Assembly (NCBI GenBank): GCA_037200965.1
Contig: JBBCGK010000001.1
Span: forward strand, 544,001 to 608,000
Direction of reading: 5' to 3'
DNA from: a bacterium
GTDB lineage: Bacteria > Patescibacteriota > Minisyncoccia > Phycocordibacterales > Phycocordibacteraceae
DNA: 64,000 nt
Positions 2,174-25,514 of the stretch are shown here, piece by piece (position 1 is the first letter of the stretch; every line of letters begins with the position of its first letter). The notes below the pieces were generated by a model. That model had not been told where the DNA came from and did not search any database. It saw nothing but the letters and a program-made list of their open reading frames with translations. The translations under genes and the position numbers were made by a program.

Positions 2174-2196
2174 CGGTATAAAAAGCTGGTTCGCAC

Positions 2197-2269: not shown

Positions 2270-2270
2270 C

Positions 2271-2307: not shown

Positions 2308-2353
2308 ATACGGGCAGTGTTACAAGTAGCGGGAAGTTCTAGAGGATAATGCC

Positions 2354-3332: not shown

Positions 3333-3365
3333 TATGCGGAGTTTGATTCTTGTCTCCTGCGCGCG

Positions 3366-3968
3366 TCAAGCGTGCTCGAGCGCCTTATACCCGTATCCGC
3401 TCCCGCTGTCGGTCTTGATGATCCTGTAAAACCAGTACTCCATCTCTCCGTCGGAGCGCTTCGCTCCAATGCCGAAGACATACGGTTTGTGGGACGCGAC
3501 ATCCCCCGACTCATACATGCGGATAACTGATTGCAAGTCGGTAAGGGACGGTTTTGGGATTCCGGACGCGGGATGCGTATGGACATCACCAATTAAATGG
3601 AAATCCCTGTACTCGGCGTGCCTTTCTTGTATTTCCTCGATGCGCCTCCTCATCAATCCGAGATCGACCGAAACCGTCTCGACGCCCTCTTTATACGAGC
3701 CGTATTTTGTCAGCTCTTCCTCCGTCTCCTGATAGACGCCTTTAATCTGGAGATTGACTTGGCCCGCACTGTCAATCGCATATGACCCGAGCAGAGCACC
3801 GTACCGCTCGGTTCCGGTCGCAGCATCCGCACCGGAAACTTTCGGCAAATGATCGACCACATCGGGCGCAAGTTCGAAAGAAACTTTTAGATTCTCATCT
3901 AGAAAATCGATACTGGGGATCTGTTCTTGATGAGGCTTTCTTTCAGGAATGTGAGGACCTTCACTCAT
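3366..3968 (-). CDS. JAB/MPN (JAMM) metalloprotease-domain protein, possibly RadC-like
   Basis: Complete JAMM motif HTHPASGIPKPSLTD (H-x-H-x7-S-x2-D) with upstream conserved Glu; lies 38 nt downstream of holA on the same strand. Confidence 0.6.
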   Translation of the reverse strand: MSEGPHIPERKPHQEQIPSIDFLDENLKVSFELAPDVVDHLPKVSGADAATGTERYGALLGSYAIDSAGQVNLQIKGVYQETEEELTKYGSYKEGVETVSVDLGLMRRRIEEIQERHAEYRDFHLIGDVHTHPASGIPKPSLTDLQSVIRMYESGDVASHKPYVFGIGAKRSDGEMEYWFYRIIKTDSGSGYGYKALEHA

Positions 3969-4006
3969 ACTTTAATCATATCATTCCTTAATAATTGCGA
4001 CGTAAA

Positions 4007-4705
4007 TCAAAGCGACAGCGCGAAACGCTCGAGCGCAAGCGTAAGATCGCTTCCGGTACGGCGGGAATCCTGGAGCAAGGAAATGAGTTTGAGCGAGAGT
4101 TCGCGCGCAGCACGCGGCGGATACGCCCTCCCGCCTCCTTTCGCGAGAATGTCGCGCGCCTTCCAGTGGAGGAGGCCGTGGAGCATCTCGGGAGCGTCGC
4201 CCTGGCGAAGCGCCCGCTCGATCTCAAGCCACAATTTCTCGCCGTCGCGGGCGGCAAGCGCGTTCGTAAGGTTGATGTTGAACCCGCGGGCGGGAGGGGC
4301 CTTCGGAAGGTCGAACGCATAATCTTTCGCGGCCCTGGCGATGATCTTCTTCGCCTTCGCCGCAAGAAGTTTCGGCGCCACTATCACGATCGCATTATCA
4401 GACGCGGCGAGCATGTCGAGCGCGGATGCGAACACATCCTTATCCTCCTCCTCTTCCTCGTCTTCCTCTTCGTCTTCCACCGCTTTCCTTTTTGTTTTCG
4501 CGAACGGATCGTCAAACAGCACGAGAAGTCGTTTTATAAAGAGCCCCCCGGACTGCGCGGCATCCTCAAGCACGCTTTCCGTGATGTCCTCCTTGGCGAT
4601 GCGCGCATACGCGAGCCCCGGTTCCTTCGCGCGCGCGGCCGCGACCCAGGCGAACGCCTTCTCGCGCACCTTGTCCGTATCTGAGCCGTGGAAAAGATAG
4701 ATCAT
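4007..4705 (-). CDS. holA: DNA polymerase III delta subunit-like protein
   Basis: N-terminus MIYLFHGSD... typical of delta subunit; acidic insert EDEEEDEEEEEDKD; start overlaps polA stop by 4 nt (operon). Confidence 0.5.
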   Translation of the reverse strand: MIYLFHGSDTDKVREKAFAWVAAARAKEPGLAYARIAKEDITESVLEDAAQSGGLFIKRLLVLFDDPFAKTKRKAVEDEEEDEEEEEDKDVFASALDMLAASDNAIVIVAPKLLAAKAKKIIARAAKDYAFDLPKAPPARGFNINLTNALAARDGEKLWLEIERALRQGDAPEMLHGLLHWKARDILAKGGGRAYPPRAARELSLKLISLLQDSRRTGSDLTLALERFALSL

Positions 4706-11142: not shown

Positions 11143-12570
11143 TTACATAAGCAGGAAGTAGTCGAGTGGAAGCTTCACTACATTCTCTTCCCTTGAGAGC
11201 AACAGGCTTGTAGTGCAGACAACGACTCCGAAATCGGTCTTGAAGTTTACCATCGTCGCTTTCACTTGTTCGTAGTTCTTTCGTCCGAGACCGACCTCAA
11301 AGGCAAGCTGCTTCTTGTCGGCGATCTGTACCAGGAAGTCGGCGCTACTCTTGGACGGGTCGTGCGTTAATCCTCCCGTCCTGGTTGCCACGAACTCCCG
11401 ATAGAAGTGGAGGCCTGCTATGTCTTCAAGATACTTGCCTTTTCTCGCAAGATACGTGCCTTCAATGCCGCTGACACTGAGAAGCGCCGAGCGAATTGCC
11501 GGACTCATGAACAGATACTTGGCTGGCTTACGCGCTTGCGCCGTTTTAGAGCCTTGGGCGGGTACTTTGATTATAAGTTCGGCTCGTTCAAGCACGTCCA
11601 GTACGGCCATGACCGTGTTATAGCTTAGCTGGACAACATTTTTTACATTGTTGACGCTTACAATGTCGCTATCGGCCATGATAAAGAGGAGGCGCTTGAT
11701 CGCGCTGAGCGTCGGCGCATCAAACTGCCCGAGGTCCTTTATATCTTTATCAATGATTCGATCCAGGAGAATGTTGATGTTGTCGTAAGCATTCGGGGTT
11801 ATCGCGCGGAGAGTAAAGGGCAGGGTGCCGTTCAAAAGGTATTCGTCGATTTCGGCTCGGTCAAAACGGGCCCACTGCGCCGCGACGTTTTGTTCAAGTT
11901 TCTTAAGCCGGTCGAAAGCGTCTCCGGCATTAGAAGCCCCATATAGCGCATCCTTAATCTTCTCCTTGAGTCCCGCCTGAGGGAAGATATTATGCTTGAT
12001 CATCTGGTACTCACCGAAACTAAGGGGATAAAGCTTCTCGAACTGCGCCCGACGAGCGACGTCCGGGTTTGACTGGAGCGACACCGCTGATGAACCGGTG
12101 CAGAACAGGAATACATTTCTCGCTCGGTCATGGAGAGACTTCAGGACCGCTGCCCAGTTTTTATCCTGCTGCACTTCATCAATGAAGAGCAGCACCGGAG
12201 TATCGAGGCTCTCGAACGGTTTCCCGAGAATGGATTCATAAGCGTCTAAAGCATCGTTCAGGGTCATGCCCCGGGTGACGAGATCGTCGACCGACATATA
12301 AAGGAAGCTGGTCGGGGCTTTGGAGACACGCCTCGTAGAGAGAAAGACCTGAGCCATTGCAGTAGTCTTTCCAACACCGCGCAGCCCAGGGACAATTATC
12401 CAGCGTACCGTTCGGGCACCTTCAAGGAAATCATTCACATACTTTTTTATACGGATAACGATATGTCTTTCCGGAAAGGTGAACGTGGCCGTTTGAAACA
12501 CGTACGGGCGGAGGCGGTCCTCGCTACGGTTTAGCTGATTTTGAATATACTCAAGGGCTTCGGTATTCAT
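11143..12570 (-). CDS. AAA-family ATPase with C-terminal DUF4143-like domain
   Basis: Walker A GLRGVGKTT, Walker B LLFIDEVQ; 475 aa; gene and its 5' intergenic region are lower-GC than the neighbouring ruv genes. Confidence 0.65.
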   Translation of the reverse strand: MNTEALEYIQNQLNRSEDRLRPYVFQTATFTFPERHIVIRIKKYVNDFLEGARTVRWIIVPGLRGVGKTTAMAQVFLSTRRVSKAPTSFLYMSVDDLVTRGMTLNDALDAYESILGKPFESLDTPVLLFIDEVQQDKNWAAVLKSLHDRARNVFLFCTGSSAVSLQSNPDVARRAQFEKLYPLSFGEYQMIKHNIFPQAGLKEKIKDALYGASNAGDAFDRLKKLEQNVAAQWARFDRAEIDEYLLNGTLPFTLRAITPNAYDNINILLDRIIDKDIKDLGQFDAPTLSAIKRLLFIMADSDIVSVNNVKNVVQLSYNTVMAVLDVLERAELIIKVPAQGSKTAQARKPAKYLFMSPAIRSALLSVSGIEGTYLARKGKYLEDIAGLHFYREFVATRTGGLTHDPSKSSADFLVQIADKKQLAFEVGLGRKNYEQVKATMVNFKTDFGVVVCTTSLLLSREENVVKLPLDYFLLM

Positions 12571-14284: not shown

Positions 14285-16372
14285 ATGACCAAGCGAGCGC
14301 GCGTCCGCCCGAAGCGGCACCACTTCATCCTTACGCTCGCGCTTTTCGCGGCGGGCCTCGTGCTTATCCTCGTCGGCGTCGGCGCGGTATGGATAGCCCT
14401 CGCGCCCACCCCCGACATCGATTCCTTCGCAACCCGGGAGATAAGCCAGTCGACGAAGATATACGACCGTACCGGCACCATCCTCCTCTATGACCTCAAT
14501 ACCGATACCCGGCGCGATATCGTAAGCCTCGCGAGCACGTCGCCCTATGTCCAGAAGGCGACGGTCGCGATCGAGGACGCGGATTTCTATCAGCACTCGG
14601 GCATCCGCATCACCTCGATCTTCCGCGCCATCCTCGCCGACCTCACGCCGGGCGGCCTCACCCAGGGCGGCTCGACCATCACGCAGCAGGTGGTGAAGAA
14701 ATCCATCCTCACGGACGAGAAGAGCATCACCCGCAAGGTGCACGAATGGATACTCGCCATAAAGCTCGAACAGAAATACTCCAAGGATCAGATTCTCGAA
14801 ACGTATCTCAACGAAGTCCCGTACGGCGGCAGCCTCTACGGCATCGAATCGGCAAGCGAGGCGTATTTCGGCACGAATGCGGGAGGGCTCTCGCTCGCCG
14901 AGTCCGCGTATCTCGCCGCAATCCCCCAGGCTCCCACGTACTATTCCCCGTACGGAAGCCACCGCGCCTCGCTTGATGCCCGCCAGGCCCTGGTGCTCGA
15001 GCGCATGAAGGAACTCGGGTTCATAACCGACGAGGAATACGCGGCGGCGAAGGCGGAGGTGGTGACGTTCAACCCGCAGCAGCCTTCCTCGATCATCGCC
15101 CCGCACTTCGTCTTCTATATACGGGAATACCTCGAGAACAAGTACGGCCCGCAGGAACTCGCTTCAGGAGGGCTTAAAGTAGTGACGACGCTCGACGCGG
15201 ATCTTGAGCACGACGCGGAGTCTCTCGTAAACAAGTATGCGCTTGAGAACGTGAAGAAATTCAACGCGAGCAACGCTTCCCTCGTCGCGATCGACCCCAA
15301 GACCGGGCAGATACTCGCGATGGTGGGCTCGAGGGACTATTTCGACAAGGACATCCAGGGGAACTTCAACGCCGCGACCTCACACCGCCAGCCAGGCTCG
15401 ACCTTCAAGCCCTTCGTCTATGCGGCGGCGCTCAGGAAAGGCTTTACGCCCGACACCGCGATATTTGACGTGCCGACCCAGTTCTCCACTTCCTGCAGCC
15501 CCTCGGATATTTATAACGACACCCCTCCCTGCTACGCTCCGAGCGACTATGACGACAAGTTCCGCGGCCCCATGACCTTCACGACGGCGCTCGCGCAGTC
15601 GATCAACGTGCCGGCGGTGAAGACGCTCTATCTCGCGGGAATACAGAACGTGCTCGATGTCGCAAGCGCGATGGGCATCACCTCGCTTGGCGACCGCAAG
15701 CAATACGGACTCTCGCTTGCGCTTGGCGCGGGCGAAGTTTCGCTCCTTGAGCTCACGAGTGCGTACAGCGCCTTCGCCGCCGACGGGGTACGGAATCCTC
15801 CGGTCGGGATACTCTCGGTCACCGACAGCGCCGGAAACACGCTTGAGGAATACACGCCCGCCCCCGAGCAGGCGCTCGATCCGAACGTGGCCCGGGAGAT
15901 GTCCGCCATGCTCTCGAACAACCCGGCCCGGTTCCCCGAATACCCGCCCCAGAATCCGCTCAATATCCCCGGATATGATGTGGCGGTCAAAACGGGAACG
16001 ACGAACGACTATAAGGACGCATGGACGGTCGGCTATACGCCGTCGATCGCGATCGGCGTGTGGGCCGGGAACAACGACAACAGCCAGATGGTGAAGGAGA
16101 TCGCGGGCTATATCGTCGCCCCGATGTGGAACGCGGTGATGGTCAAGGCGCTCGCCAAGTATCCGAAGGAATACTTTGGAGAGCCGATACCACCGCCCGA
16201 GATTTCGCCGATACTTCAGGGCATCTGGAATCCCGAAGGGCAGGTACACAGCGAGCTCTACTGGCTTGATAAAGATAATCCGCAGGGAGGGGCGCCGGGG
16301 AATCCGGGGAACGATCCGCAGTATCGGTACTGGGAGTATGCGGTGCAGTCGTGGTTTGGGAGGTCTATTTGA
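14285..16372 (+). CDS. Class A penicillin-binding protein (bifunctional glycosyltransferase GT51 / transpeptidase)
   Basis: N-terminal TM anchor; GT51 motifs EDADFYQHSGI, GGSTITQQVVK, RKVHEWILAIKLE; transpeptidase STFKPF, SxN and KTGT motifs. Confidence 0.9.
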   Translation: MTKRARVRPKRHHFILTLALFAAGLVLILVGVGAVWIALAPTPDIDSFATREISQSTKIYDRTGTILLYDLNTDTRRDIVSLASTSPYVQKATVAIEDADFYQHSGIRITSIFRAILADLTPGGLTQGGSTITQQVVKKSILTDEKSITRKVHEWILAIKLEQKYSKDQILETYLNEVPYGGSLYGIESASEAYFGTNAGGLSLAESAYLAAIPQAPTYYSPYGSHRASLDARQALVLERMKELGFITDEEYAAAKAEVVTFNPQQPSSIIAPHFVFYIREYLENKYGPQELASGGLKVVTTLDADLEHDAESLVNKYALENVKKFNASNASLVAIDPKTGQILAMVGSRDYFDKDIQGNFNAATSHRQPGSTFKPFVYAAALRKGFTPDTAIFDVPTQFSTSCSPSDIYNDTPPCYAPSDYDDKFRGPMTFTTALAQSINVPAVKTLYLAGIQNVLDVASAMGITSLGDRKQYGLSLALGAGEVSLLELTSAYSAFAADGVRNPPVGILSVTDSAGNTLEEYTPAPEQALDPNVAREMSAMLSNNPARFPEYPPQNPLNIPGYDVAVKTGTTNDYKDAWTVGYTPSIAIGVWAGNNDNSQMVKEIAGYIVAPMWNAVMVKALAKYPKEYFGEPIPPPEISPILQGIWNPEGQVHSELYWLDKDNPQGGAPGNPGNDPQYRYWEYAVQSWFGRSI

Positions 16373-16388
16373 GAAGGAATAACCTTGC

Positions 16389-16457
16389 GCGAGTTGGTCG
16401 TCTAAGACGATTTTGGAACATGCCCTGGCACAGCGAGGTTCGAACCCCGACAACGGA
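16389..16457. repeat. GC-rich extragenic repeat family, copy A
   Basis: Contains CGAGTTGGTCGTCTAAGAC and CCCTGGCACAGCGAGGTTCGAACC blocks shared with copies at 16868, 18398 and 19601. Confidence 0.45.
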
Positions 16458-16554
16458 GCACGACATTGACAGTAGTAACATAGTTTAGTACAAGGATTAT
16501 AGGGTCTAGATTCTTCCGGCAGTTCCAATCTTCTGTCGCGCTCAGGAGGGCATC

Positions 16555-16806
16555 ATGTATTACTCTGAATCTTTGAGCCGCCTCGGCTTCAAGAAAGTTA
16601 CCGGGCCTGTGCCCTGTCTGCACCGGACGCATCGCGGCGTTTATACCACCGGAGAATATTTTGGCACGGTGTGGACCTGCGCCAGCGACGAAGACTATGC
16701 TCTGTGGATCAAGAAAGGAAATGGTGAGATTGGTCAGTATGGCTTTACGAAGGTCTCCAACCTTTCCGTGGATATAACAGGGCTTGAACCGGTTCCCTTG
16801 GAGTAA
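16555..16806 (+). CDS. hypothetical protein (83 aa), island cargo
   Basis: Good SD (AGGAGG 7 nt upstream of ATG); low-GC; no recognisable motif. Confidence 0.35.
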   Translation: MYYSESLSRLGFKKVTGPVPCLHRTHRGVYTTGEYFGTVWTCASDEDYALWIKKGNGEIGQYGFTKVSNLSVDITGLEPVPLE

Positions 16807-16867
16807 GGGAGCCGGTTTTTTGAACGTCTTCCACCAACCTGATTTGAATATTCTTCGTGAAAATGTC

Positions 16868-16975
16868 AGCTAGCCGTCCGGCACGAAGTTGGAGCCTTAG
16901 CTCAAGAAAAAACGTATATTTATTTTAACCCATAGCGACTCATGAAAGTTATGGGCCGACCGTCTCGAGCGCGCA
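16868..16975. repeat. GC-rich extragenic repeat family, copy D (two sub-blocks)
   Basis: CCGTCCGGCACGAAGTTGGAGCC and GGGCCGACCGTCTCGAGCGCGCAAGGG embedded in AT-rich spacer; shares motifs with copies A, B and C. Confidence 0.4.
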
Positions 16976-16987
16976 AGGGAAACTGTC

Positions 16988-18406
16988 TTACTCAACCCTT
17001 ATTAGCGGCGTTGCCCCGAAAGTAACCTTCTGTGGTATTCCGTCCTTTATATCGCTAAATGTAGCTATTTCCCCTCTCGAACTAAATCCGCTCCCTCCTT
17101 TTAATAGGAACTTACTTTCATCTATCGACTGAAGAATCGTTTTATTGCTACCAAATAGTGGAGAGCTTGTATTCATATCAAAAGAAACTAGCGTATCTTT
17201 TATCTTAACTACTACCTTGTCTTCTCCAGAATTCCGATAAATACCTTCGTATTTTATACCATCAACTTTATTTTCCGACGTGTAATCAGAATTATTTTCA
17301 GTAAGACTGTATATTGCTTGAAAAATGCTCTGGGCATATGCCCATACCGGAGCTTTTGAGGTATTTGCGAGCACAACAACACCAAGTTCATTCCCGTAAT
17401 CAATGGCAACCTTTGATACAAAACCTTTGAAGCCTCCGCCATGGCCATATACTTTTTTAGAACTAACGTCATACATTTCAATCCCTAAACAGTATTTATC
17501 CGTACTCCTGGTATAGAAATCAGGCTCTGTAACCATACTTTGTTTAGATTCATTCTTTAAAAGAATCTCTGGTGCCTTAAACGGGAAGGTGGCTATATAT
17601 CTTGCAAGATCAATAGCATTTGAAATAAAGCCAGTCGCTGGCGCATAGGCATTAGCAGAGTAATGCCCGTACTTTTCCCTTTCCTGACCTGGTATTTCTC
17701 GTCCAAGGCCATTAGCAAGACCTCCTATATCTTTTTTATAATCAGTGAAGGTTGAGACCATGTCTAGCCTATCTAAGATATTTGCTTGAATATATTCCTC
17801 ATAAGACAGGCCGCTTACAGCAGCAATAAGTTCGCCTAAAACCGCGAAGCCGTAATTGGAGTATTTGAACTGAGAAGATGGTTTAAAAACCAAAGCTTCG
17901 TCTAAAAGAAGCTGAAGCGTCGTGGGGAATTCACCTGTAAACCAATGGGGTGTAGTACCTTCGCTCCAAATACCAGACGTGTGAGACAGTAATTCGTTAA
18001 TTGTAATATCTTCTAATTTGCCGTTTTCATTCTCTCCTTTGAACCATGGGAGATACTTTGAGACTGAATCTGTGAGTTTGATCTTTTCTTCTTCTACGAG
18101 TTGAAAAACTGCAACCGATGTAAACATCTTTGAAACAGAACCAATGTGATATAGGGTGTTTTCACTAACTTCAATCTTTTTTTCTAGGTCAGCATATCCA
18201 AAACCCTTCTTATACAAAACTTCTCCTTTATAAATAATTGCAATTGAAACACCAAGCACTTTATCGTATTGCAGTCTTAAAGGAAGCCATACCTCCAATA
18301 GATGCGCGACTTCTTTGATTGCTGATTTAATGTCGATCTCCACAACTATAATTGTAGTACAAAAAATGAAGTACCACGAGCAGTACGATTGTTCTGCGCC
18401 TCTCAA
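16988..18406 (-). CDS. Beta-lactamase-family serine hydrolase (class C beta-lactamase / PBP4-like / esterase fold); probable true start near 18343 (GTG)
   Basis: S-x-x-K active-site motif SVSKMF after the YHIGS block; YxN-like and later motifs of the family; about 450 aa; markedly low GC; the listed 5' extension uses a TTG and overlaps repeat copy B. Confidence 0.7.
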   Translation of the reverse strand: MRGAEQSYCSWYFIFCTTIIVVEIDIKSAIKEVAHLLEVWLPLRLQYDKVLGVSIAIIYKGEVLYKKGFGYADLEKKIEVSENTLYHIGSVSKMFTSVAVFQLVEEEKIKLTDSVSKYLPWFKGENENGKLEDITINELLSHTSGIWSEGTTPHWFTGEFPTTLQLLLDEALVFKPSSQFKYSNYGFAVLGELIAAVSGLSYEEYIQANILDRLDMVSTFTDYKKDIGGLANGLGREIPGQEREKYGHYSANAYAPATGFISNAIDLARYIATFPFKAPEILLKNESKQSMVTEPDFYTRSTDKYCLGIEMYDVSSKKVYGHGGGFKGFVSKVAIDYGNELGVVVLANTSKAPVWAYAQSIFQAIYSLTENNSDYTSENKVDGIKYEGIYRNSGEDKVVVKIKDTLVSFDMNTSSPLFGSNKTILQSIDESKFLLKGGSGFSSRGEIATFSDIKDGIPQKVTFGATPLIRVE

Positions 18407-18460
18407 GCGCGAAACCCTGGCACGAGTTGGCTGGCCGCCTCGAGTTCGAACCGTATAGAG
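18398..18460. repeat. GC-rich extragenic repeat family, copy B
   Basis: CAAGCGCGAAACCCTGGCACGAGTTGGCTGGCCGCCTCGAGTTCGAACC; about 85% identical to copy C. Confidence 0.5.
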
Positions 18461-18528
18461 ACAAGTCCGGGTTAGTACGTTTGATGAGTTTCGAGAATAT
18501 AAAACGATGCGTCTCGTGCGGCGAGGAC

Positions 18529-18903
18529 TTAGTTACCAAATACTACTTCTACATTATTTCCATCTGGATCTAGTACAAATGCTCCGTAGTAGTTTTCGTG
18601 ATATTCAGACCTAATACCTGGTGTTCCGTTATCTCTTCCTCCCGCATCAAGAGCTAATTTATGGAACTCATCCACCTCCTGTCTTGATTGAGCTTTCCAA
18701 GCGATGTGTGCTGGACCACTTATGGGTGCTTCACCGGCAAAGAACGTATTTGTCTTACCATCCTTTCCGAAGCCAATAACACGAACATGATCTTCATATG
18801 TTTGATCAAAGTTCAGTGAATATCCAAGGGGAGAAAGCGCAGCAGAATAGAATCGAGCTGTAGCTGCAATGTCACTTACTTTAAAAGTTATATGGTCGAG
18901 CAT
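18529..18903 (-). CDS. VOC-family protein (glyoxalase / bleomycin-resistance / dioxygenase fold)
   Basis: MLDHITFKVSDIAATARFYSAALSPLGY N-terminal beta-alpha-beta-beta-beta module and second module ending YYGAFVLDPDGNNVEVV; low GC. Confidence 0.65.
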   Translation of the reverse strand: MLDHITFKVSDIAATARFYSAALSPLGYSLNFDQTYEDHVRVIGFGKDGKTNTFFAGEAPISGPAHIAWKAQSRQEVDEFHKLALDAGGRDNGTPGIRSEYHENYYGAFVLDPDGNNVEVVFGN

Positions 18904-18915
18904 ATATGAATTATA

Positions 18916-19566
18916 TCAGCGCGGTTCTTCTTCGGTTGCTGTAGGCTCATCTTGTACAGACGCCTGTTTAGCTGCAGGAAGTGCTCGGGCTCGACGGAAT
19001 TTATAAAATCCCTCCAGTGCTGAAATGACTGCATCGATTACTTCGTTTGCATCCTCTTTGGTTACTGGCGCCGCTAAATCATCTGGGTGCATAACGTCAT
19101 TACGGCCGAGTCGAGCAACTGTGCTATCTGCAAATTGATCTGCATCGATCGCATCTCCATTCTTTAGCAACTCCAATCTCTTTTTTAGGCTCTTTCCCGC
19201 ATCTGAAGGTGACTTTAAGAATGCATTTACAAGTGCATCAAGCATAATTCCCGCTAAGGCAACTGAACTTCTGTAATTGCCATTATTGAACTCGACATAC
19301 ATTTCACCGCAGATCTCGCGGTAATTCTCTGGGAGCCAAGATGGTACTTGATGAGTTGAAATTACTGGATAAACGAATTTTACTCTGTTTTTAAATCCTG
19401 GCTCATGTTCGACGACAAAAGCATGCCCTCCCGGACATTCAACTACGCAGACGGTTTGTCCTTCACGGAACTGGTGTTGCCAAACTTCTGCAAAATAGGA
19501 GTGCAGCCCACACCTAGGACAATTGCCACTCCATCTATTTCCGTCTGTCCATGTCATTTGAATCAT
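18916..19566 (-). CDS. Zn-ribbon protein with DUF4145-like C-terminal domain
   Basis: N-terminal CPRC...CVVECPGGH four-Cys/His cluster; C-terminal ALAGIMLDALVNAFLK...ARLGRNDVMHPDD resembles the DUF4145 helical core; ATG preceded by a TATAAT-like box (leaderless-like); low GC. Confidence 0.45.
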   Translation of the reverse strand: MIQMTWTDGNRWSGNCPRCGLHSYFAEVWQHQFREGQTVCVVECPGGHAFVVEHEPGFKNRVKFVYPVISTHQVPSWLPENYREICGEMYVEFNNGNYRSSVALAGIMLDALVNAFLKSPSDAGKSLKKRLELLKNGDAIDADQFADSTVARLGRNDVMHPDDLAAPVTKEDANEVIDAVISALEGFYKFRRARALPAAKQASVQDEPTATEEEPR

Positions 19567-19600
19567 ATTTTCATTATATCGCTTCTTGCGATTTTGCTAA

Positions 19601-19660
19601 GCGACGCCTCCCAAGCGCGAAACCCTAGCACGAGTTGGGTGGCCGTCTCAGACTCGAATA
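19601..19660. repeat. GC-rich extragenic repeat family, copy C
   Basis: CAAGCGCGAAACCCTAGCACGAGTTGGGTGGCCGTCTCAGACTCGAATAC; paralogous to copy B. Confidence 0.5.
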
Positions 19661-19669
19661 CTAAGCTTG

Positions 19670-19921
19670 TTATCGAATCCCCTTCACCGCCACCCCCGCC
19701 CCCCGGAGCGCATCCGTTATGGCCGCCTCTCGCAGATGCATTTCGGACTTAATCACAGGGGATACTTTAAGCGACACGGTCTCGTCCTCATAAGACACCT
19801 GGCTCGCCTTTATCGTAAGGCCAAGGACGCTGCTTATGGTCTCCGCGCACACCCTCCGCCTCTCGGACTGCCGGAGGCCCGGTACCGGGTGCTTGAGCAA
19901 TATGTCCGAGAGGGATTTCAT
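19670..19921 (-). CDS. small protein downstream of dnaN, tentatively DUF721/DciA-like
   Basis: 83-aa ORF separated from the dnaN stop by 10 nt on the same strand; position and N-terminal MKSLSDILLK... pattern reminiscent of DUF721 proteins encoded after dnaN; weak. Confidence 0.3.
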   Translation of the reverse strand: MKSLSDILLKHPVPGLRQSERRRVCAETISSVLGLTIKASQVSYEDETVSLKVSPVIKSEMHLREAAITDALRGAGVAVKGIR

Positions 19922-19931
19922 GGAGAGTCAG

Positions 19932-21032
19932 CTACTGATTCATCGGCATCACAAGATACAGGAACGACGCATCGCCGACACCCTTTATAACGAGCGGCCT
20001 TCCGACTCCCCCGGCAGAAAGCGTGACACTCTCCGCGCCTGAAAGCGCCACCGCAGCCTGAAGATAACGATGGTTGAAGGAAAGCTCGATATTCTCTCCT
20101 GTAAGACTCCCAGAAATGGTCTCGGAAGATTCTCCGACATCCGCATTCCTGGCCTGGAGCGAAATCTGCTTCTTCTCCTTATCAAACGCCATACGCACCT
20201 TCTGGAACGAGTCGGAGAAGATCGTGGTGCGCTTGAGCGCGGCATCAAGATCCCTCCGGAGCACGGTCGCTTCCGCCGAAAACGTCTTCGGGATGATCTG
20301 GCGATAGTCGGGATAGTTTCCGCTCACAAGCCTCGTGGTCACGAGACTCCCGCCCCACCCGATGGCGCACTGGTGCTCGTCGATCGAGAGCGTCACCGCC
20401 TCGTCCGGAAGCGTCTGTACGATATCCAGAGCATTCTTTGCGGGGATAAGGAGCGAGAATGAGGGGACGGAGCCTGGAAGCGAGGTGTGCTTCTCGGCAA
20501 GACGGAAGGAGTCCGTAGCGGCGGTAACGAGCGACCCTCCCTCGCTTGCGACAAGCACGCTCGCGAGCTCCGGGCGTATGGTCGAAGTGGAGGCGCAGGA
20601 AACGACCGAGTTGAGCGCTGTGCGAAGGAGGGTGCCCGGAATCTGGAACGTGCTCTTTGGGGACTCGGGAAACGGTATCGTCGGGAAATCCTCGTACGGC
20701 ACGGTCTTAAGGACGCCGCGGGACGTGCCGGAAGAAAGCACGACGGTATCCCCGGTCCGCTCGAGCGTCACGGACCCGTTCCCCTGAAGCGCACTCGCGA
20801 CTTGCTGGAGGAGGTTCGCGGGGAGCGCGACCACGCCCGGAGTCTTTATCTCCCCGTCCGCCTTGAGATCGACGCCGACTTCGAGATTTGTGGCACGGAA
20901 TTTGATGCCGTCATCCCCCGCAACAATCAGGATCGAAGAGAGCGCGGGAAGCGTCGCGGAGCCCCGCTGTGCGAATCGCGCCGCCGTATGCACTACTTCC
21001 GCGAGTCCTTTCTTTTCTAAAATAATAAGCAT
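19932..21032 (-). CDS. dnaN: DNA polymerase III beta sliding clamp
   Basis: 366 aa, three-domain beta-clamp pattern; N-terminus MLIILEKKGLAEVVHTAARFA...LSSILIVAGDDGIKFRATNLEVG; immediately downstream of dnaA. Confidence 0.9.
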   Translation of the reverse strand: MLIILEKKGLAEVVHTAARFAQRGSATLPALSSILIVAGDDGIKFRATNLEVGVDLKADGEIKTPGVVALPANLLQQVASALQGNGSVTLERTGDTVVLSSGTSRGVLKTVPYEDFPTIPFPESPKSTFQIPGTLLRTALNSVVSCASTSTIRPELASVLVASEGGSLVTAATDSFRLAEKHTSLPGSVPSFSLLIPAKNALDIVQTLPDEAVTLSIDEHQCAIGWGGSLVTTRLVSGNYPDYRQIIPKTFSAEATVLRRDLDAALKRTTIFSDSFQKVRMAFDKEKKQISLQARNADVGESSETISGSLTGENIELSFNHRYLQAAVALSGAESVTLSAGGVGRPLVIKGVGDASFLYLVMPMNQ

Positions 21033-22874: not shown

Positions 22875-23186
22875 ATGTTTCCGCGCGAAAAGCGCGTTTC
22901 CCGCGAGGATTTCCCGAAGCTTCTTGCTTCGCGCACGAGGCTTTTCTCCCCCCACTTCTCCGCTACCCTCTCCGAAACCTCCGCAGGGGTCGCGGCCGTG
23001 GTGTCGAAGAAGGTTGAGAAGACGTCGGTCGGAAGACACAGGCTAAAACGCCGGATTCTGGGCGTTTTAGCGTCGTATAACACGCTTCCGGCGCTCGGGA
23101 TCATCGTATTTGCGAAAGCCGGAGCCGCAGCCCTTAGCTCAAAAGAGCTTCGGGAAGAGCTCCGGGAGCTTTTCAGAAAAGTGTAG
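22875..23186 (+). CDS. rnpA: Ribonuclease P protein component
   Basis: Basic 103-aa protein with RnpA RNR-like motif GRHRLKRRI; immediately follows rpmH. Confidence 0.8.
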   Translation: MFPREKRVSREDFPKLLASRTRLFSPHFSATLSETSAGVAAVVSKKVEKTSVGRHRLKRRILGVLASYNTLPALGIIVFAKAGAAALSSKELREELRELFRKV

Positions 23187-23226
23187 CCCAAATAAAGCCG
23201 CAGACCTTATCTGCTACCATTACCCT

Positions 23227-23652
23227 ATGGCAACAATAAATCCCTGGATTAACTTCAACGGCAATGCCGAAGAAGCCTTTATGTTTTACAAATCAGTATT
23301 TGGCGGTGAGTTTACAAAGATTATCCGTTTGAAAGATCTTGCGAGTTCCGAGTTTCCCGTAGCGGACGCGGATGCGGAGAAAATCATGCTCATCGCCCTG
23401 CCGATTGGCAAGAACAGCGTATTGATGGCAAATGACGTACCCTCATTTATGGGTAGGGTGAGTGAAAATGAAAACCGAAGTAAAATCTCGGTCAGTACAG
23501 AGAGCAAGGAGGAAGCGGAGGCTATATTTGAAGGCCTCTCGGCAGGAGGGCAAGTCGAAGCGCCGCTCGGTGAGAGTGCGTGGGGAACCTATTTTGGCAT
23601 GTTCAGGGACAAATATGGCATCGAGTGGATAGTGGAGTTTCGATTTGAATAA
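23227..23652 (+). CDS. PhnB-like VOC-family protein; upstream extension to 23110 unlikely
   Basis: MATINPWINFNGNAEEAFMFYKSVFGG...KIMLIALPIGKNSVLMAND...EAPLGESAWGTYFGMFRDKYGIEWIVEF matches the PhnB/3-demethylubiquinone MTase-like VOC family; low GC. Confidence 0.6.
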   Translation: MATINPWINFNGNAEEAFMFYKSVFGGEFTKIIRLKDLASSEFPVADADAEKIMLIALPIGKNSVLMANDVPSFMGRVSENENRSKISVSTESKEEAEAIFEGLSAGGQVEAPLGESAWGTYFGMFRDKYGIEWIVEFRFE

Positions 23653-23697
23653 GTTTTTAATCAAAAGGCGCACAATCTTAACCCCGCTTAGACTCTC

Positions 23698-24630
23698 ATG
23701 CTTCCCAAGCTTACAGACGACCAAATTAAAAGTGTTTTTACTAACGTTGGCCTCGGCACTCCGAACACCATCAAAAAACTCAGTGTCGGCTTCTCAAACG
23801 ATGTGTATTCCGTAGACGATAAATACATTTTTAAGGCCATTAGGAACGAAGAAGACACGTCGTATCTAAAGAAGGAAATCCACCTTTGCAATTTGTTTAA
23901 GGAGAGGCTGCCCGCACCAGTAGTCGTGCATTCCGATACCGCTAAAGCCGCCCTTGATAGGGCGTATGTCATATACGAGAAGATTCAAGGAGATAACCTT
24001 TATATGCGGTGGCACGAATATTCCACCGAGGAGCGAAAGGCGATAGTCGAACAGATTTGCTCCTATCTTAAAGTCATTAACACTGAGCCTTTTAAAGATT
24101 TTACTGACGCTTTCAATATTGATACCAAAACTTCATGGCACGAACGGATAGCTACGAAAATACAAGAACATAAACTGAAAGCCCTTTCTGTTAATGCTAT
24201 TTCGTCTGAACAGGCGGAGCGAGTAGATGAGTATGTGAGGACTAGTTTAGTAGCACTCGATGAGTCCGTTATGGCACTGACTTACTTTGATGTTCACTTC
24301 GATAATTTTATCGTTCGAGACAAAAAGATAGTCGGAATGCTCGATTTTGAGAGGACGGATTTTTACTCGATAGATTTCGTATTGGATATCGTGCGACGCA
24401 TGGTCAACGAGCCGACTAAATACGCTTCCGAAGAAGCCGAACCGCTCATCAAGGCAGAGGATTATGCGAGTTTGATGGAACAGTACAAAGAGTATTATCC
24501 TCAACTCTTTGACTTTGAAAATCTTGAAGCGCGCCTCAAGCTATACTCAATAGACCACGACCTAGACCAACTCCATACGTGGCCTGAATCAGCGAGCCTT
24601 AAAGAGAGCTTGGCGAGGAATACTCAGTAG
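23698..24630 (+). CDS. Phosphotransferase (APH / choline-kinase) family protein
   Basis: Kinase-like fold markers: conserved Lys block IFKAI, Brenner motif YFDVHFDNFIV (H-x-D-x4-N), Asp-containing LDFE; 310 aa; low GC. Confidence 0.65.
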   Translation: MLPKLTDDQIKSVFTNVGLGTPNTIKKLSVGFSNDVYSVDDKYIFKAIRNEEDTSYLKKEIHLCNLFKERLPAPVVVHSDTAKAALDRAYVIYEKIQGDNLYMRWHEYSTEERKAIVEQICSYLKVINTEPFKDFTDAFNIDTKTSWHERIATKIQEHKLKALSVNAISSEQAERVDEYVRTSLVALDESVMALTYFDVHFDNFIVRDKKIVGMLDFERTDFYSIDFVLDIVRRMVNEPTKYASEEAEPLIKAEDYASLMEQYKEYYPQLFDFENLEARLKLYSIDHDLDQLHTWPESASLKESLARNTQ

Positions 24631-24773
24631 GCAAAATGTTCCGTTTCATCAGCCGCATCAAACACCCGTTGGCCCATCTGATTCATATACTCTCGGTTGA
24701 ATAGCAGGGGTGTATTTAGGTGACGCTCTGAGGGAGAACGGAATCGATAAATGAGGTATTATACGAAGCACGC

Positions 24774-25514
24774 ATGATCTCAAGCCTTTTCCACACGTTC
24801 TTCTACGACCCGATCTACAACCTCCTGGTATTTCTCGTATCCGTCGTCCCGCACGGGGACGTCGGTCTCGCGGTCATCGGCGTTACCATACTCGTCCGAC
24901 TCGTACTCCTTCCCTTCTCGCTTTCCGCCTCGAGAACCCAGCGCGCGATGAAGGTGCTTGAGCCGAAACTCAAGGAAATCAAGGAACAATACAAGGACGA
25001 CAAGCAGGAGCAGGCCGCGAAGACGATGGAACTTTATAAGACCGAGCGGGTAAACCCGTTCGCGAGCATCGTGACACTCCTTATACAAATGCCGGTCCTC
25101 TTCGCGCTCTATTTCGTTTTCCTCCACGAGCCGTTTCCGCAGCTAAATGCGCACCTTCTCTATACGGCGACTCCCGTTCCGGAAACGATCTCGCTTCTTT
25201 TTCTTGGGATCGTAAGCGTCCTGGGGCATAGCATCGTGCTCGCGGTTATCGCCGCCGCCGCCCAGTACTATCAGGTCATCCTTGCGGTGCCGAAGCCCAC
25301 TCCCAAGATAAAGGGTGAAGTTCTCAGTACCCAGGAGGAATTCACCCGGATGATGGGCCTCTATATGCGCGTCATCATTCCCGTGCTCATCGGCGTCGTG
25401 GCATACACGACCTCAGGCGCAGTCGCCCTCTATTTCATCACCGGCGCGGTCGTAAGTATTCTCCAGGAGCTGTATATAAAGCGCCAGTTCGACGCGAAGC
25501 CGGTCGCCCTATAA
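24774..25514 (+). CDS. yidC: Membrane protein insertase YidC (short Oxa1-type)
   Basis: 246 aa, 5 TM; conserved TM1 Arg block ILVRLVLLPFS, C1 loop KEIKEQYKDDKQEQ, TM2 PFASIVTLLIQMPV. Confidence 0.85.
   Translation: MISSLFHTFFYDPIYNLLVFLVSVVPHGDVGLAVIGVTILVRLVLLPFSLSASRTQRAMKVLEPKLKEIKEQYKDDKQEQAAKTMELYKTERVNPFASIVTLLIQMPVLFALYFVFLHEPFPQLNAHLLYTATPVPETISLLFLGIVSVLGHSIVLAVIAAAAQYYQVILAVPKPTPKIKGEVLSTQEEFTRMMGLYMRVIIPVLIGVVAYTTSGAVALYFITGAVVSILQELYIKRQFDAKPVAL

What the first reader, a model, noticed from the sequence alone, without database searches (positions are those of the whole stretch)
16373..19669. 3.3-kb low-GC cargo island (beta-lactamase-family hydrolase, VOC/bleomycin-resistance-fold protein, Zn-ribbon DUF4145-like protein, 83-aa ORF) inserted between the PBP gene and the dnaA-dnaN operon
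- **Seen in sequence.** GC drops from about 62-65% to about 40-45% exactly across 16.4-19.7 kb, and each cargo gene is bracketed by copies of a GC-rich repeat. The 450-aa protein has the SxxK motif (SVSKMF) of class C beta-lactamase / PBP4-like serine hydrolases. The 124-aa protein has two VOC modules. The 216-aa protein has an N-terminal Cys4 ribbon and a DUF4145-like helical domain; its ATG is 7 nt after a TATAAT, which looks leaderless.
- **Inference.** This is a horizontally acquired cassette array carrying resistance- or defence-like functions, inserted next to the replication-origin genes of a reduced-genome bacterium. Antibiotic-modifying or -hydrolysing enzyme families are not expected in an obligate-symbiont-type genome.
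Basis: partly seen in the sequence, partly recalled or inferred. Interest (0 to 1): 0.65.

Follow-up and report, generated by a model that had tools for sequence, protein, structure and literature searches.

The report
Foreign gene cassettes beside replication origin
A 3.3-kb stretch of foreign, low-GC DNA in a tiny-genome (Paceibacterota/Parcubacteria) bacterium is a piece of a cassette array whose repeats are copies of a conserved insertion module that normally sits right after the tRNA-Gln gene in many related bacteria, and it carries a peptidase-type "beta-lactamase-family" enzyme and a likely anti-phage RNase rather than antibiotic-resistance genes.

Summary
Window 16373-19669 is the strongest compositional outlier in the 64 kb: GC 0.36-0.46 against about 0.60, GC3 0.26-0.36 against 0.62-0.85, and tetranucleotide z up to 7.6. 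It is absent from the conserved dnaA-dnaN-(ORF83b)-PBP1A-ruvC-yebC locus of 77 related species.

The "GC-rich repeat" is a degenerate tRNA-Gln 3' end followed by a conserved box of about 37 bp (ACTCGTGCTAGGTTAT-CGCGCnCGAGACGCGTCG). A promoter often follows, placed 6-7 nt before a leaderless start codon. About 25 metagenome loci carry the same module. In 11 of them it directly follows an intact tRNA-Gln and precedes highly varied cargo, and no integrase was found in the sequence held.

The island holds two such cassettes plus remnants and an orphan ORF:
- A zinc-ribbon + DUF4145/HEPN protein together with a VOC protein.
- A 451-aa PF00144 serine hydrolase.

The hydrolase family is common in Patescibacteria and scores far below class C beta-lactamase cut-offs. 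The DUF4145 protein has the domain architecture of the RAZR (PD-T7-4) abortive-infection RNase.

Verdict: a real, horizontally acquired cassette array. The integron and antibiotic-resistance readings are not supported. The insertion module looks like a new variant of tRNA-targeted island building, and its recombinase is unknown.

The parts
19639..19668 (-). Truncated pseudo-tRNA-Gln 3' end (pseudoT). It abuts the stop codon of native ORF83b (19670-19672) and forms the island's border on the dnaN side.
   Evidence: It aligns with the pseudoT of L144 and L115 and with real tRNA-Gln T-arm/acceptor ends.
19602..19638 (-). Left-end box (LE) of cassette A: L half CCAACTCGTGCTAGGGTTT plus R half CGCGCTTGGGAGGCGTCG.
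   Evidence: The same box occurs in about 25 metagenome loci.
19564..19600 (-). Cassette promoter: -35 TTAGCA, 16-nt spacer, -10 TATAAT, then the ATG 6 nt later (leaderless start of the DUF4145 gene).
   Evidence: 10 of 12 consensus matches. The same arrangement is conserved in L112, L133, L137 and L115 ahead of unrelated cargo.
18916..19566 (-). 216-aa protein with a zinc ribbon and a DUF4145/HEPN domain, probably an abortive-infection-type RNase with RAZR/PD-T7-4-like architecture.
18529..18903 (-). 124-aa VOC (glyoxalase/bleomycin-resistance/dioxygenase fold) protein in the same cassette. It has its own TATAAT 6 nt before the ATG (18901-18915).
   Evidence: PF00903, E 4e-8. No NCBIfam family comes near its cut-off. 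Coordinates.
18431..18523 (-). Right end (RE) of cassette A: a second copy of the R box (18505-18523), about 50 nt of conserved arm, and pseudoT ending in GGCCAG before the CCA.
   Evidence: nhmmer unit model, E 1.7e-22. The same unit occurs in L112, L115, L144, L139, L141, L129, L094 and L086.
18394..18430 (-). LE box of cassette B (L 18412-18430, R 18394-18411).
   Evidence: A homologous box lies upstream of the bla orthologues in L085 and L086.
16988..18343 (-). 451-aa PF00144 serine hydrolase (S-x-x-K, Y-S-N, H-G-G), probably a D-peptidase or PBP-like enzyme. It starts at a GTG 7 nt after TACAAT (18341-18356).
   Evidence: The start codon is aligned with the ATG of the orthologues.
16866..16973 (-). 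RE of cassette B: R box at 16956-16973 (13/13 CGCGCTCGAGACG) and a terminal pseudoT at 16866-16896 that is not followed by an LE.
   Evidence: Terminal junctions of the same kind occur in L112 and L139.
16544..16821 (+). ORF83a (16555-16806), an orphan ORF with a Shine-Dalgarno sequence and an intrinsic-terminator-like hairpin, on the opposite strand. GC is 0.52.
   Evidence: No Pfam or NCBIfam family. It has no homologue other than itself among 5.8 billion clusters..
16379..16448 (-). Two pseudoT remnants (16423-16448 and 16398-16419) and a truncated LE (the L half only, 16379-16397, matching 17/19). It abuts the PBP1A stop codon and forms the island's border on the PBP side.
14285..16372 (+). 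Native flank: class A PBP (transglycosylase plus transpeptidase), convergent with ORF83b-dnaN.
   Evidence: Syntenic in 77 relatives.
19670..21032 (-). Native flank: ORF83b (19670-19921), which is conserved after dnaN in many relatives, and dnaN (19932-21032).

Best explanation
The segment is a horizontally acquired fragment of a "tRNA-Gln-linked cassette array", a kind of integrase-less mini-island found in Patescibacteria.

**Anatomy of one cassette**
- It begins immediately after a ...CAGCCA end. That end belongs either to the real tRNA-Gln gene or to a pseudo-copy carried by the preceding cassette.
- A conserved left end follows (ACTCGTGCTAGGTTAT-CGCGCnCGAGACGCGTCG).
- In many cassettes an outward promoter comes next, with its -10 box 6-7 nt before a leaderless start codon.
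- The cassette then carries 1-3 cargo genes.
- It ends with a second copy of the CGCGCnCGAGACGCGTCG box, about 50 nt of conserved arm, and a pseudo-tRNA-Gln 3' end that recreates the CAGCCA target.

**How arrays grow.** Repeated site-specific insertion at this target builds tandem arrays. The recombinase is not encoded in the cassettes, so it must act in trans. This step is inferred.

**What this genome holds.** There are two complete cassettes. Cassette A carries a zinc-ribbon-HEPN RNase plus a VOC protein. Cassette B carries a D-peptidase-like PF00144 hydrolase. Decayed ends and an orphan ORF accompany them. The array lies in the convergent intergenic gap between PBP1A and ORF83b-dnaN, not at tRNA-Gln. 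Both outer borders are truncated module pieces. The array therefore arrived there by a secondary or illegitimate event, or by later deletion.

**Cargo.** It is accessory (cell-wall peptide turnover and phage defence), not antibiotic resistance.
For: **Foreign origin**
- Composition is strongly atypical.
- 77 related species keep the dnaA-dnaN-(ORF83b)-PBP1A-ruvC-yebC order. Their dnaN-PBP gaps are 29-4718 nt, mostly under 500, and none has these genes there.
- The bla orthologues keep GC 0.38-0.40 in hosts of GC 0.44-0.51 and sit in unrelated contexts.

**The module**
- A pattern taken only from the L half found 57 metagenome loci.
- About 25 of them also carry the R half, which was not part of the pattern, in register.
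- In 11 loci ARAGORN calls an intact tRNA-Gln (CTG or TTG) whose CCA is the first three bases of the box.

**Right-end unit.** It was found by nhmmer in the window and in 8 other loci.

**Insertion polymorphisms**
- L112 has a single 590-bp cassette between tRNA-Gln and a terminal pseudoT.
- L115 has an extra 1.69-kb low-GC cassette between tRNA-Gln and an island that L136 carries directly after its tRNA-Gln (89-92% identity). The upstream flanks of L115 and L136 are unrelated.
- L128 and L102 are 99.5% identical to the right of CAGCCA and unrelated to the left.

**Cargo next to the module is highly diverse.** It includes DUF305, DoxX, CopA, DsbA, MatE, a PALP-rhodanese protein, a trypsin-like peptidase, DUF2268, Fic, NUDIX, CYTH, a methyltransferase, a cyclase and an S51 peptidase.

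**Promoters and host lineage.** The promoter is conserved in five cassettes with unrelated cargo. L136 belongs to a 742-kb contig named Candidatus Paceibacterota.
Against: - No recombinase is linked to the module. None was found among 177 ORFs in 28 loci. In the window the nearest are a Xer-like gene 33 kb away and a large serine recombinase 42 kb away.
- Neither border of the island is a clean att junction. No tRNA-Gln lies in the window, and no tRNA lies at this locus in 56 of the relatives scanned. How the array reached this site is therefore unexplained.
- The ORF83a segment does not fit the cassette plan.
- In L101 a 5-kb cargo block follows the left end without a detectable right end.
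- The metagenome search was seeded with the L half, so conservation of L is partly due to ascertainment.
Confidence: 0.72

Rival explanations
1. Integron-type array. The repeats would be attC sites, and the genes promoterless cassettes captured by an IntI integrase. A variant is a CALIN, an attC cluster that has lost its integrase.
For: Single genes or gene pairs are separated by a recurring repeat of about 55-130 nt in one orientation. No integrase is adjacent, as in CALINs. The cargo is diverse.
Against: - The repeats do not fold into attC-like hairpins on either strand. Their z-scores range from -1.2 to +0.5 against shuffles.
- Reading the sequence shows no R''/R' (RYYYAAC/GTTRRRY) cores.
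- The 7-bp inverted repeat has a central mismatch in 19 of 25 copies and shows no covariation.
- Cassettes carry their own -35/-10 promoters.
- The site is tied to the tRNA-Gln 3' end.
- No IntI lies near any copy.
Confidence: 0.04
2. The repeat is a cis-regulatory or RNA element, for example a tRNA-Gln 3' trailer, processing site or terminator, or a shared operator. On this view it was duplicated with its neighbouring genes and is not a recombination site. The island would then be ordinary HGT by illegitimate or homologous recombination.
For: - The box lies directly after the tRNA-Gln CCA and upstream of promoters.
- The small CGCG/CGCG stem shows some compensatory change: 3 double changes, matched by only 2 of 500 shuffles.
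- Direct repeats of 18-37 nt could support homologous shuffling.
Against: - There is no Rfam match even at E<=5.
- The stem has only 4 bp and no T-run follows it.
- The box recurs with a pseudo-tRNA far from any tRNA-Gln, in the window and in L144.
- A second R copy plus a conserved arm closes each cassette.
- Sequences on the two sides of the box are reshuffled between genomes exactly at it.
Confidence: 0.12
3. IS200/IS605-like (HUH, Y1 transposase) single-strand mobilisation. The cassettes would be transposase-less derivatives (PATE-like) that insert 3' of the pentamer/hexamer ...CAGCCA. Subterminal hairpins at both ends would guide the insertion, and an autonomous relative would mobilise them in trans.
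For: - There are no terminal inverted repeats and no target duplication.
- Insertion is exactly 3' of a fixed short sequence.
- The same R box, with a potential small hairpin, occurs near both ends in direct orientation.
- The foot of the left hairpin lies 16 nt from the junction.
- The right end recreates the target, which would allow tandem arrays.
- The comparison with IS608 geometry rests on established knowledge and was not tested here.
Against: - No TnpA or TnpB gene was seen in any locus.
- The hairpin is only 4 bp.
- The right-end box lies about 75 nt from the end, which is longer than in known members.
- The resemblance to a tRNA 3' end is more typical of integrase att sites.
Confidence: 0.1
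4. The region is ancestral and has been lost in the sampled relatives, or it is an assembly or binning chimera.
For: The relatives sampled are only 55-65% identical in DnaN, so close sister genomes were not examined.
Against: - GC3 is 0.26-0.36 against 0.62-0.85.
- The bla orthologues occur in other contexts and are 76-79% identical at the DNA level.
- 77 of 77 relatives lack these genes at the site.
- Identical junctions appear in an NCBI MAG and in an independent Logan assembly.
Confidence: 0.02

Closest known systems
tRNA-targeted genomic islands built by successive integrations, e.g. Prochlorococcus islands and tycheposons (bioRxiv 10.1101/2020.12.28.424599)
   Same: - Both occur in streamlined genomes.
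- Islands sit next to a tRNA gene, flanked and interspersed with partial tRNA copies.
- New arrivals push older ones further in.
- Degenerate remnants are present.
- Cargo consists of niche and defence genes (compared).
   Different: - Tycheposons are defined by their own integrase, hallmark replication genes and a size of 10-20 kb.
- Here the units are 0.6-2 kb and have no integrase or hallmark genes.
- They carry a conserved 37-bp box downstream of the CCA, a promoter-bearing left end and a repeated box at the right end.
- The window's copy is not next to a tRNA.
Integron gene cassettes and CALINs
   Same: Both are arrays of small units, mostly of one or two genes, with very diverse cargo, separated by a recurring recombination-site-like repeat. 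No recombinase lies inside the units.
   Different: The sites do not fold like attC and are sequence-conserved. They are tied to the tRNA-Gln 3' end. The cassettes bring their own promoter. No IntI or attI platform was found.
RAZR / PD-T7-4 abortive-infection RNase (Nature 2026, PMC13017515)
   Same: - An N-terminal zinc ribbon and a C-terminal DUF4145 (divergent HEPN) domain.
- A conserved Arg...His pair. RAZR has R146/H154; here it is R152/R155...H160.
- A length of about 200 aa.
   Different: No sequence-level match was found to any PADLOC model or PDB chain. The zinc ligands look CCCH. Only 4 close homologues exist in 5.8 billion clusters. Activation by phage portal rings is untested.
Pab87 / CubicO-group peptidases, alkaline D-peptidase, Flp/FmtA (PF00144 PBP-like hydrolases)
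   Same: The best solved relatives are 4gdn (Flp), 2qmi (Pab87, 447 aa) and 4y7p (ADP). The protein has the SxxK and YxN motifs, a length of about 450 aa and a C-terminal extra domain. JGI names the homologues "CubicO group peptidase".
   Different: The relationship is only family-level, with E values from 1e-32 to 1e-27. The substrate is unknown. It is not a class C beta-lactamase by NCBIfam cut-offs.

Membership tests
Horizontally acquired genomic island | Composition and codon usage unlike the host genome | tested here: met
   GC 0.36-0.46 against 0.60, GC3 0.26-0.36 against 0.62-0.85, tetranucleotide z up to 7.6.
Horizontally acquired genomic island | Absent from the syntenic site in related genomes | tested here: met
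   77 relatives have conserved flanks and none has these genes. Most gaps are under 500 nt.
Horizontally acquired genomic island | Integrase or other mobility gene at a border | tested here: not met
   No mobility gene lies in 9.9-23.5 kb. The nearest recombinases are at 52.2 kb and 61.5 kb.
tRNA-targeted integrative element (tycheposon-like) | Flanking full-length or partial tRNA copies as att sites | tested here: met
   Pseudo-tRNA-Gln 3' ends lie at 19639-19668, 18431-18460, 16866-16896 and 16398-16448. An intact tRNA-Gln abuts the box in 11 related loci.
tRNA-targeted integrative element (tycheposon-like) | Own site-specific integrase and hallmark replication genes | tested here: not met
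   None was found among 177 neighbouring ORFs in 28 loci or in the island.
tRNA-targeted integrative element (tycheposon-like) | Located next to the target tRNA gene | tested here: not met
   There is no tRNA within 14 kb of the island, and no tRNA-Gln in the window.
Integron / CALIN | attC sites: imperfect palindromes that fold as hairpins, with R''/L''-L'/R' cores | tested here: not met
   DNA folds are no better than shuffles on either strand. The inverted repeat is interrupted and does not covary.
Integron / CALIN | IntI integrase with attI and a Pc promoter; promoterless cassettes | tested here: not met
   No IntI is adjacent. The cassettes have their own -35/-10 promoters.
Class C beta-lactamase (AmpC) | Score above the NCBIfam bla_class_C cut-off | tested here: not met
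   92.7 bits against a cut-off of 415.
Class C beta-lactamase (AmpC) | Motifs SxxK, YxN, KTG | tested here: not met
   SVSK and YSN are present. The third motif reads HGG, and there is no KTG.
PF00144 serine hydrolase (PBP-like / D-peptidase) superfamily | Pfam gathering score and a catalytic SxxK | tested here: met
   211 bits against a cut-off of 27. The best PDB relatives are Flp, Pab87 and ADP.
RAZR / PD-T7-4 | N-terminal zinc ribbon plus C-terminal DUF4145/HEPN domain | tested here: met
RAZR / PD-T7-4 | Conserved catalytic Arg and His in the HEPN domain | tested here: met
   R152, R155, N156 and H160 are invariant in 5 homologues.
RAZR / PD-T7-4 | Detectable sequence homology to characterised members | tested here: not met
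   There is no PADLOC family at E<=10 and no PDB chain at E<=1. Whether those libraries hold RAZR itself was not verified.
RAZR / PD-T7-4 | Phage-ring-triggered oligomerisation and RNA cleavage causing abortive infection | not testable with these tools
   This needs experiment.
VOC-fold resistance proteins (FosA/FosB, bleomycin-binding, glyoxalase I) | Score above the family-specific cut-offs | tested here: not met
   Fos_GSH scores 17 against 180, and GloA 18 against 165. Only the generic PF00903 is met.
IS200/IS605-type (HUH) element or PATE derivative | Subterminal hairpins at both ends, insertion 3' of a fixed short target, no TIR or TSD | tested here: inconclusive
   The geometry is compatible. 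However, the stem is only 4 bp with weak covariation.
IS200/IS605-type (HUH) element or PATE derivative | TnpA (Y1) available in the genome | not tested
   Only 64 kb of the 960-kb genome was available. None was seen in the loci scanned.

The most novel reading that the evidence does not exclude
Patescibacteria (Paceibacterota and relatives) may possess a previously undescribed gene-capture system. Its units would be integrase-less micro-cassettes of 0.6-2 kb, or larger. Each would carry its own leaderless-type promoter. Each would insert precisely after the CCA of tRNA-Gln, or after a pseudo-copy carried by a resident cassette, through a conserved 37-bp box. This would build arrays that work like an integron but use a different site and an as yet unknown trans-acting recombinase. 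The arrays could also be seeded at ectopic sites such as the origin-proximal dnaN/PBP1A gap.
Probability: 0.4. Interest if true: 0.8.

Novelty: new variant of a known kind. Interest (0 to 1): 0.6.

Why it matters
CPR/Patescibacteria have tiny genomes and few recognisable mobile elements. How they gain accessory and defence genes is poorly understood.

This locus shows a concrete, recurrent vehicle. It is a conserved insertion module tied to tRNA-Gln that carries very diverse cargo: metal resistance, efflux, peptidases, HEPN and Fic toxins.

The module gives a simple sequence handle, the 37-bp box. With it one could mine flexible gene pools in thousands of CPR MAGs and search for the responsible recombinase.

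The finding also corrects a tempting misannotation. The "beta-lactamase" here belongs to a lineage-typical PBP-like peptidase family and is not a resistance gene. In addition, the locus extends the RAZR-like zinc-ribbon-HEPN architecture to CPR bacteria.

Tried and rejected
- **Known RNA family.** Rfam found nothing for the repeat at gathering threshold or at E<=5.
- **Real tRNA at the repeat.** ARAGORN finds none in the island. None lies at this locus in 56 of the relatives scanned.
- **attC-like folding.** Rejected.
- **More copies of the repeat.** None was found elsewhere in the window, in the 80 related dnaN loci or in IMG/VR viral contigs.
- **An early crossover model.** I first read the isolated R halves and the isolated L half as hybrid att sites with a crossover at TTAT|CGCG. 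I dropped this after seeing two things. Every cassette normally ends with its own R copy, arm and pseudoT. Terminal junctions in L112 and L139 break right after CAGC(C/A)A.
- **Integrase hunt.** Pfam scans of 40 neighbouring ORFs, plus phmmer with the window's Xer-like and serine recombinases against 177 ORFs, found nothing.
- **DUF4145 homologue contexts.** L087-L091 do not carry the module.
- **ORF83a.** It has no homologues.
- **Failed look-ups.** The exact look-up of one window protein failed, as did those of the 216-aa DUF4145 form and two metagenome proteins.
- **Literature.** Searches found no prior description of a tRNA-Gln-linked cassette module in CPR within the held library.

Full report
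**1. What organism and locus this is**

The window has about 60% GC. Its DNA is 99.99-100% identical to a contig of MAG GCA_015655515.1 and to a Logan assembly of SRR10968228. The longest contig on record for its proteins is 960 kb.

A DnaN-based scan of one genome per species returned 80 loci from Paceibacterota, Parcubacteria and Kaiserbacteria-type MAGs, 55-65% identical in DnaN.

The genes around the finding are:
- RuvB
- an AAA_14/DUF4143 ATPase
- YebC
- RuvC
- PBP1A (14285-16372, + strand)
- the island
- ORF83b (19670-19921, - strand)
- dnaN
- dnaA
- rpmH and rnpA

PBP1A and ORF83b-dnaN are convergent, so the island sits between two gene 3' ends.

**2.

GC falls to 0.36-0.46 between about 16.8 and 19.4 kb. 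The stretch 16.4-16.8 kb is intermediate at about 0.51.

| Gene | GC3 |
|---|---|
| hydrolase (bla) | 0.326 |
| VOC | 0.264 |
| DUF4145 | 0.355 |
| ORF83a | 0.595 |
| 18 native genes | 0.62-0.85 |

In 2-kb tetranucleotide profiles the island is the only part of the 64 kb with z above 2.5, peaking at 7.6.

The domain calls made by eye are confirmed:
- PF00144, E 2.9e-62
- PF00903, E 4e-8
- PF13643, E 1.9e-7

Two repeat copies of 54 nt are 85% identical, and none is expected by chance.

There are three small corrections:
- The hydrolase starts at GTG 18341-18343 (451 aa), aligned with the ATG of its orthologues.
- DUF4145 and VOC share one cassette.
- The conserved zinc ligands are C16, C19, C44 and H48.

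**3. The site is empty in relatives**

In 77 related species with both flanks present, the order dnaA-dnaN-(ORF83b)-PBP1A-ruvC-yebC is kept. The dnaN-to-PBP1A gap is 29-4718 nt and mostly under 500 nt. None contains a relative of the island genes.

The GC drop of the gap relative to its flanks is 0.16 here, the largest of all. Some relatives have other inserts at the same spot, for example an IS1595 transposase and an S51 peptidase in L004. The convergent gap therefore tolerates insertions in general.

**4. What the repeat is**

I read the repeat on the minus strand, which is the sense strand of the cargo. Each full copy has two parts:
- A degenerate tRNA T-arm and acceptor end (…GGTTCGAAC…GGCCAGCCA).
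- The box ACTCGTGCYAGGGTTT-CGCGCTTGRGAGGCG.

The orthologous hydrolase genes in two other Parcubacteria contigs (L085, L086) carry the same sequence upstream.

A 20-nt degenerate pattern from the first half only (L) was searched in JGI metagenomes and hit 57 loci. Fourteen are one unrelated soil sequence. About 25 continue in register with the second half (R, CGCGCnCGAGACGCGTCG), which was not in the pattern. That cannot be chance.

In 11 of these loci ARAGORN calls an intact tRNA-Gln (anticodon CTG or TTG) whose terminal CCA is the first three bases of the box. One such contig is a 742-kb Candidatus Paceibacterota sequence.

**5. Anatomy of a cassette**

Comparing loci gives a consistent unit.

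The left end (LE) runs CCA|ACTCGTGCTAGGTTAT-CGCGCnCGAGACGCGTCG. In five cassettes with unrelated cargo it continues as follows:
- -35 TTAGCA
- a spacer of 16-17 nt
- -10 TATAAT
- 6-7 nt
- the start codon, giving a leaderless message

The right end (RE) follows the cargo stop codon. It holds a second R box, about 50 nt of conserved arm, and a pseudo-tRNA-Gln end finishing in GGCCAGCCA. An nhmmer model finds it in the window (18428-18522, E 1.7e-22) and in L112, L115, L144, L139, L141, L129, L094 and L086.

The pseudo-tRNA is conserved between loci from different genomes and differs from the local tRNA-Gln. It is therefore part of the element, not a displaced host fragment.

Natural insertion polymorphisms show the unit behaving as an insert:
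- L112 has one 590-bp cassette with a 139-aa gene between tRNA-Gln and a terminal pseudoT, followed by unrelated DNA.
- L115 has an extra 1.69-kb cassette (GC 0.42) between its tRNA-Gln and an island of about 7 kb. L136 carries that island directly after its own tRNA-Gln, at 89-92% identity. The upstream flanks of the two are unrelated.
- L128 and L102 are 99.5% identical from CAGCCA rightwards and unrelated leftwards.
- L101 and L127 share the tRNA-Gln and LE at 99% and then diverge.

Cargo next to the box is very diverse:
- DUF305, DoxX, a CopA-type ATPase and DsbA
- MatE
- a PALP-rhodanese protein
- a trypsin-like peptidase
- DUF2268
- Fic
- NUDIX
- CYTH
- a methyltransferase
- a cyclase
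- an S51 peptidase
- an SRPBCC protein
- HEPN-like proteins

**6. The window's array in these terms (minus-strand order)**

1. ORF83b stop.
2. Truncated pseudoT (19639-19668).
3. LE (19602-19638).
4. Promoter (19564-19600).
5. DUF4145 gene.
6. VOC gene.
7. RE (18431-18523).
8. LE (18394-18430).
9. TACAAT-N7-GTG.
10. Hydrolase gene.
11. RE box (16956-16973), then a terminal pseudoT (16866-16896).
12. A 470-nt segment holding ORF83a on the other strand. It has a Shine-Dalgarno sequence and a terminator, GC 0.52, and no homologues.
13. Two pseudoT remnants and a 19-nt truncated LE (16379-16448).
14. PBP1A stop.

Both outer borders are truncated module pieces rather than hybrid att sites, and no tRNA-Gln is nearby. 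The array therefore either arrived as a fragment from a tRNA-Gln-linked array, or integrated at a secondary site and was later trimmed by deletion. I cannot tell which.

A second ectopic copy exists in contig Ga0163151_10004642 (L122 plus L144). Its pseudoT-LE lies 15 kb from the tRNA-Gln-LE.

**7. Mechanism**

*Shown:*
- A conserved module.
- Its precise position after the tRNA-Gln CCA.
- Its duplication with each cassette.
- Insertion polymorphisms.
- Mosaic junctions at the module.
- No recombinase inside the cassettes.

*Inferred:* site-specific insertion by a trans-acting enzyme.

The enzyme class is open. A tyrosine or serine integrase using a CAGCCA-containing core would fit the tRNA-end mimicry. 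An HUH (IS200/IS605-like) single-strand mechanism would fit other features:
- The lack of inverted terminal repeats and of target duplication.
- The fixed 3' target.
- The same small hairpin-capable box near both ends.

The 7-bp inverted repeat CTCGTGC/GCnCGAG has a mismatched centre in 19 of 25 copies and does not covary. The 4-bp CGCG stem shows weak covariation. This argues against a structured RNA but does not decide between the DNA mechanisms.

In the window, a Xer-like tyrosine recombinase (52248-53168) and a large serine recombinase (61479-62792, beside a tRNA-Gly/Pro/Gly cluster) are candidates only by presence.

**8. What the cargo does**

*Hydrolase.* There were 451 homologues at E<=1e-3. 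The closest are 74-78% identical. The sources that name them call them Parcubacteria, Patescibacteria, Nomurabacteria or Minisyncoccota, and JGI labels them "CubicO group peptidase" or D-Ala-D-Ala carboxypeptidase.

The best solved relatives are Flp (4gdn), Pab87 (2qmi, 447 aa) and alkaline D-peptidase (4y7p). The class C model scores 92.7 bits against a cut-off of 415. The third motif is HGG, not KTG.

The most likely function is a D-stereospecific or PBP-like peptidase acting on cell-wall peptides, not a beta-lactamase.

The orthologues keep GC 0.38-0.40 in hosts of GC 0.44-0.51. They sit beside gyrB, parAB or other genes. The gene is therefore itself a frequent traveller within the phylum.

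*DUF4145 protein.* Only four homologues (46-50% identity) exist in 5.8 billion clusters, all in CPR-like contexts.

The alignment shows invariant CPxC…CPxGH and ARLxRNxVxHP motifs. The model built from this alignment (pLDDT 70) has a HEPN fold:
- Hits to Csm6, AbiA, AbiV, LsoA and RnlA.

DUF4145 was assigned to the HEPN superfamily, with zinc-ribbon fusions noted (PMC3710099). The zinc-finger + DUF4145 protein RAZR (PD-T7-4) is an abortive-infection RNase activated by phage portal-like rings, with catalytic R146/H154 (PMC13017515).

The window's protein shares that architecture and motif. It has no detectable sequence match to PADLOC or PDB entries. I say it "works like" RAZR with moderate confidence. 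Family membership is unproven.

*VOC protein.* Only the generic fold is met, and the substrate is unknown.

**9. Comparison with known systems and novelty**

The nearest concept is tRNA-linked island building by successive integrations that leave partial tRNAs, as described for Prochlorococcus tycheposons. The present units fail the tycheposon definition:
- They have no integrase or hallmark genes.
- They are about ten times smaller.
- They have their own distinctive ends and promoter.

They resemble integron cassettes in function but fail every structural criterion for integrons.

I found no description of this module in the held literature. That is weak evidence, given the library's limits.

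I rate the island itself as an ordinary, though clear, HGT island. I rate the module as a new variant of a known kind.

**10. Limits**
- Only 64 kb of the genome was available.
- The metagenome scan was seeded by the L half.
- The relatives are distant.
- The recombinase and the route to the ectopic site remain unknown.

Noticed in passing
window 23000-24800 (gene 23698-24630, +): A second low-GC patch (0.41-0.48) lies on the other side of dnaA/rnpA. It carries an APH-family phosphotransferase (PF01636, E 1e-14; GC3 0.49). No copy of the LE/RE module was found there.
   Followed up: partly
window 11143-12570 (-): An AAA_14/DUF4143 ATPase lies between ruvB and yebC. It matches the PADLOC candidate defence family PDC-S01 (E 2e-29). 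Its GC is 0.51, with a 0.41 trough at 12.4-13.0 kb just upstream.
   Followed up: no
window 58500-62800 (recombinase 61479-62792, -; tRNAs 60114-60675): A large serine recombinase (Resolvase + Recombinase + Zn_ribbon_recom) sits next to a tRNA-Gly/Pro/Gly cluster in a zone of about 0.50 GC. It may be an integrated element and is a candidate trans-acting recombinase.
   Followed up: no
window 52248-53168 (+): A Xer-like tyrosine recombinase (Phage_int_SAM_1 + Phage_integrase) with native composition.
   Followed up: no
window 19573-19578, 18910-18915, 18351-18356 and L112/L115/L133/L137: Cassette genes have a -10 box (TATAAT or TACAAT) 6-7 nt before the start codon and no Shine-Dalgarno sequence, so their mRNAs are leaderless. 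ORF83a, by contrast, has a GGAGG Shine-Dalgarno sequence.
   Followed up: partly
L083 8001-9359, L085 7571-8941, L086 2613-3968: Orthologues of the PF00144 gene keep GC 0.38-0.40 in hosts of GC 0.44-0.51. They are 76-79% identical in DNA to the window's copy and lie beside gyrB, parAB or other genes. The gene seems to circulate within the phylum.
   Followed up: partly
L085 7324-7527: Here the module (pseudoT + LE) lies 48 nt after a tRNA-Leu(CAA) gene rather than after tRNA-Gln.
   Followed up: no
L122 + L144 (one 18.2-kb contig, Ga0163151_10004642): An RE-pseudoT-LE copy with a PALP-rhodanese cargo lies about 15 kb from the tRNA-Gln-LE copy of the same contig. This is a second example of an ectopic module.
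   Followed up: partly
L004 11101-15820: A relative carries a different 4.7-kb insert in the same dnaN/PBP1A gap, including an IS1595-family transposase and an S51 peptidase. The convergent gap is a recurrent insertion spot.
   Followed up: partly
L101 (oriented) 150-5100: A 5-kb copper-resistance block (DUF305, DoxX, CopA-type ATPase with an HMA domain) follows the tRNA-Gln-LE without a detectable right-end unit.
   Followed up: no
window 2197-4000: tRNA-Lys (2197-2270) is followed by a stretch of lower GC (about 0.53) with small ORFs. It may be another tRNA-adjacent variable region.
   Followed up: no
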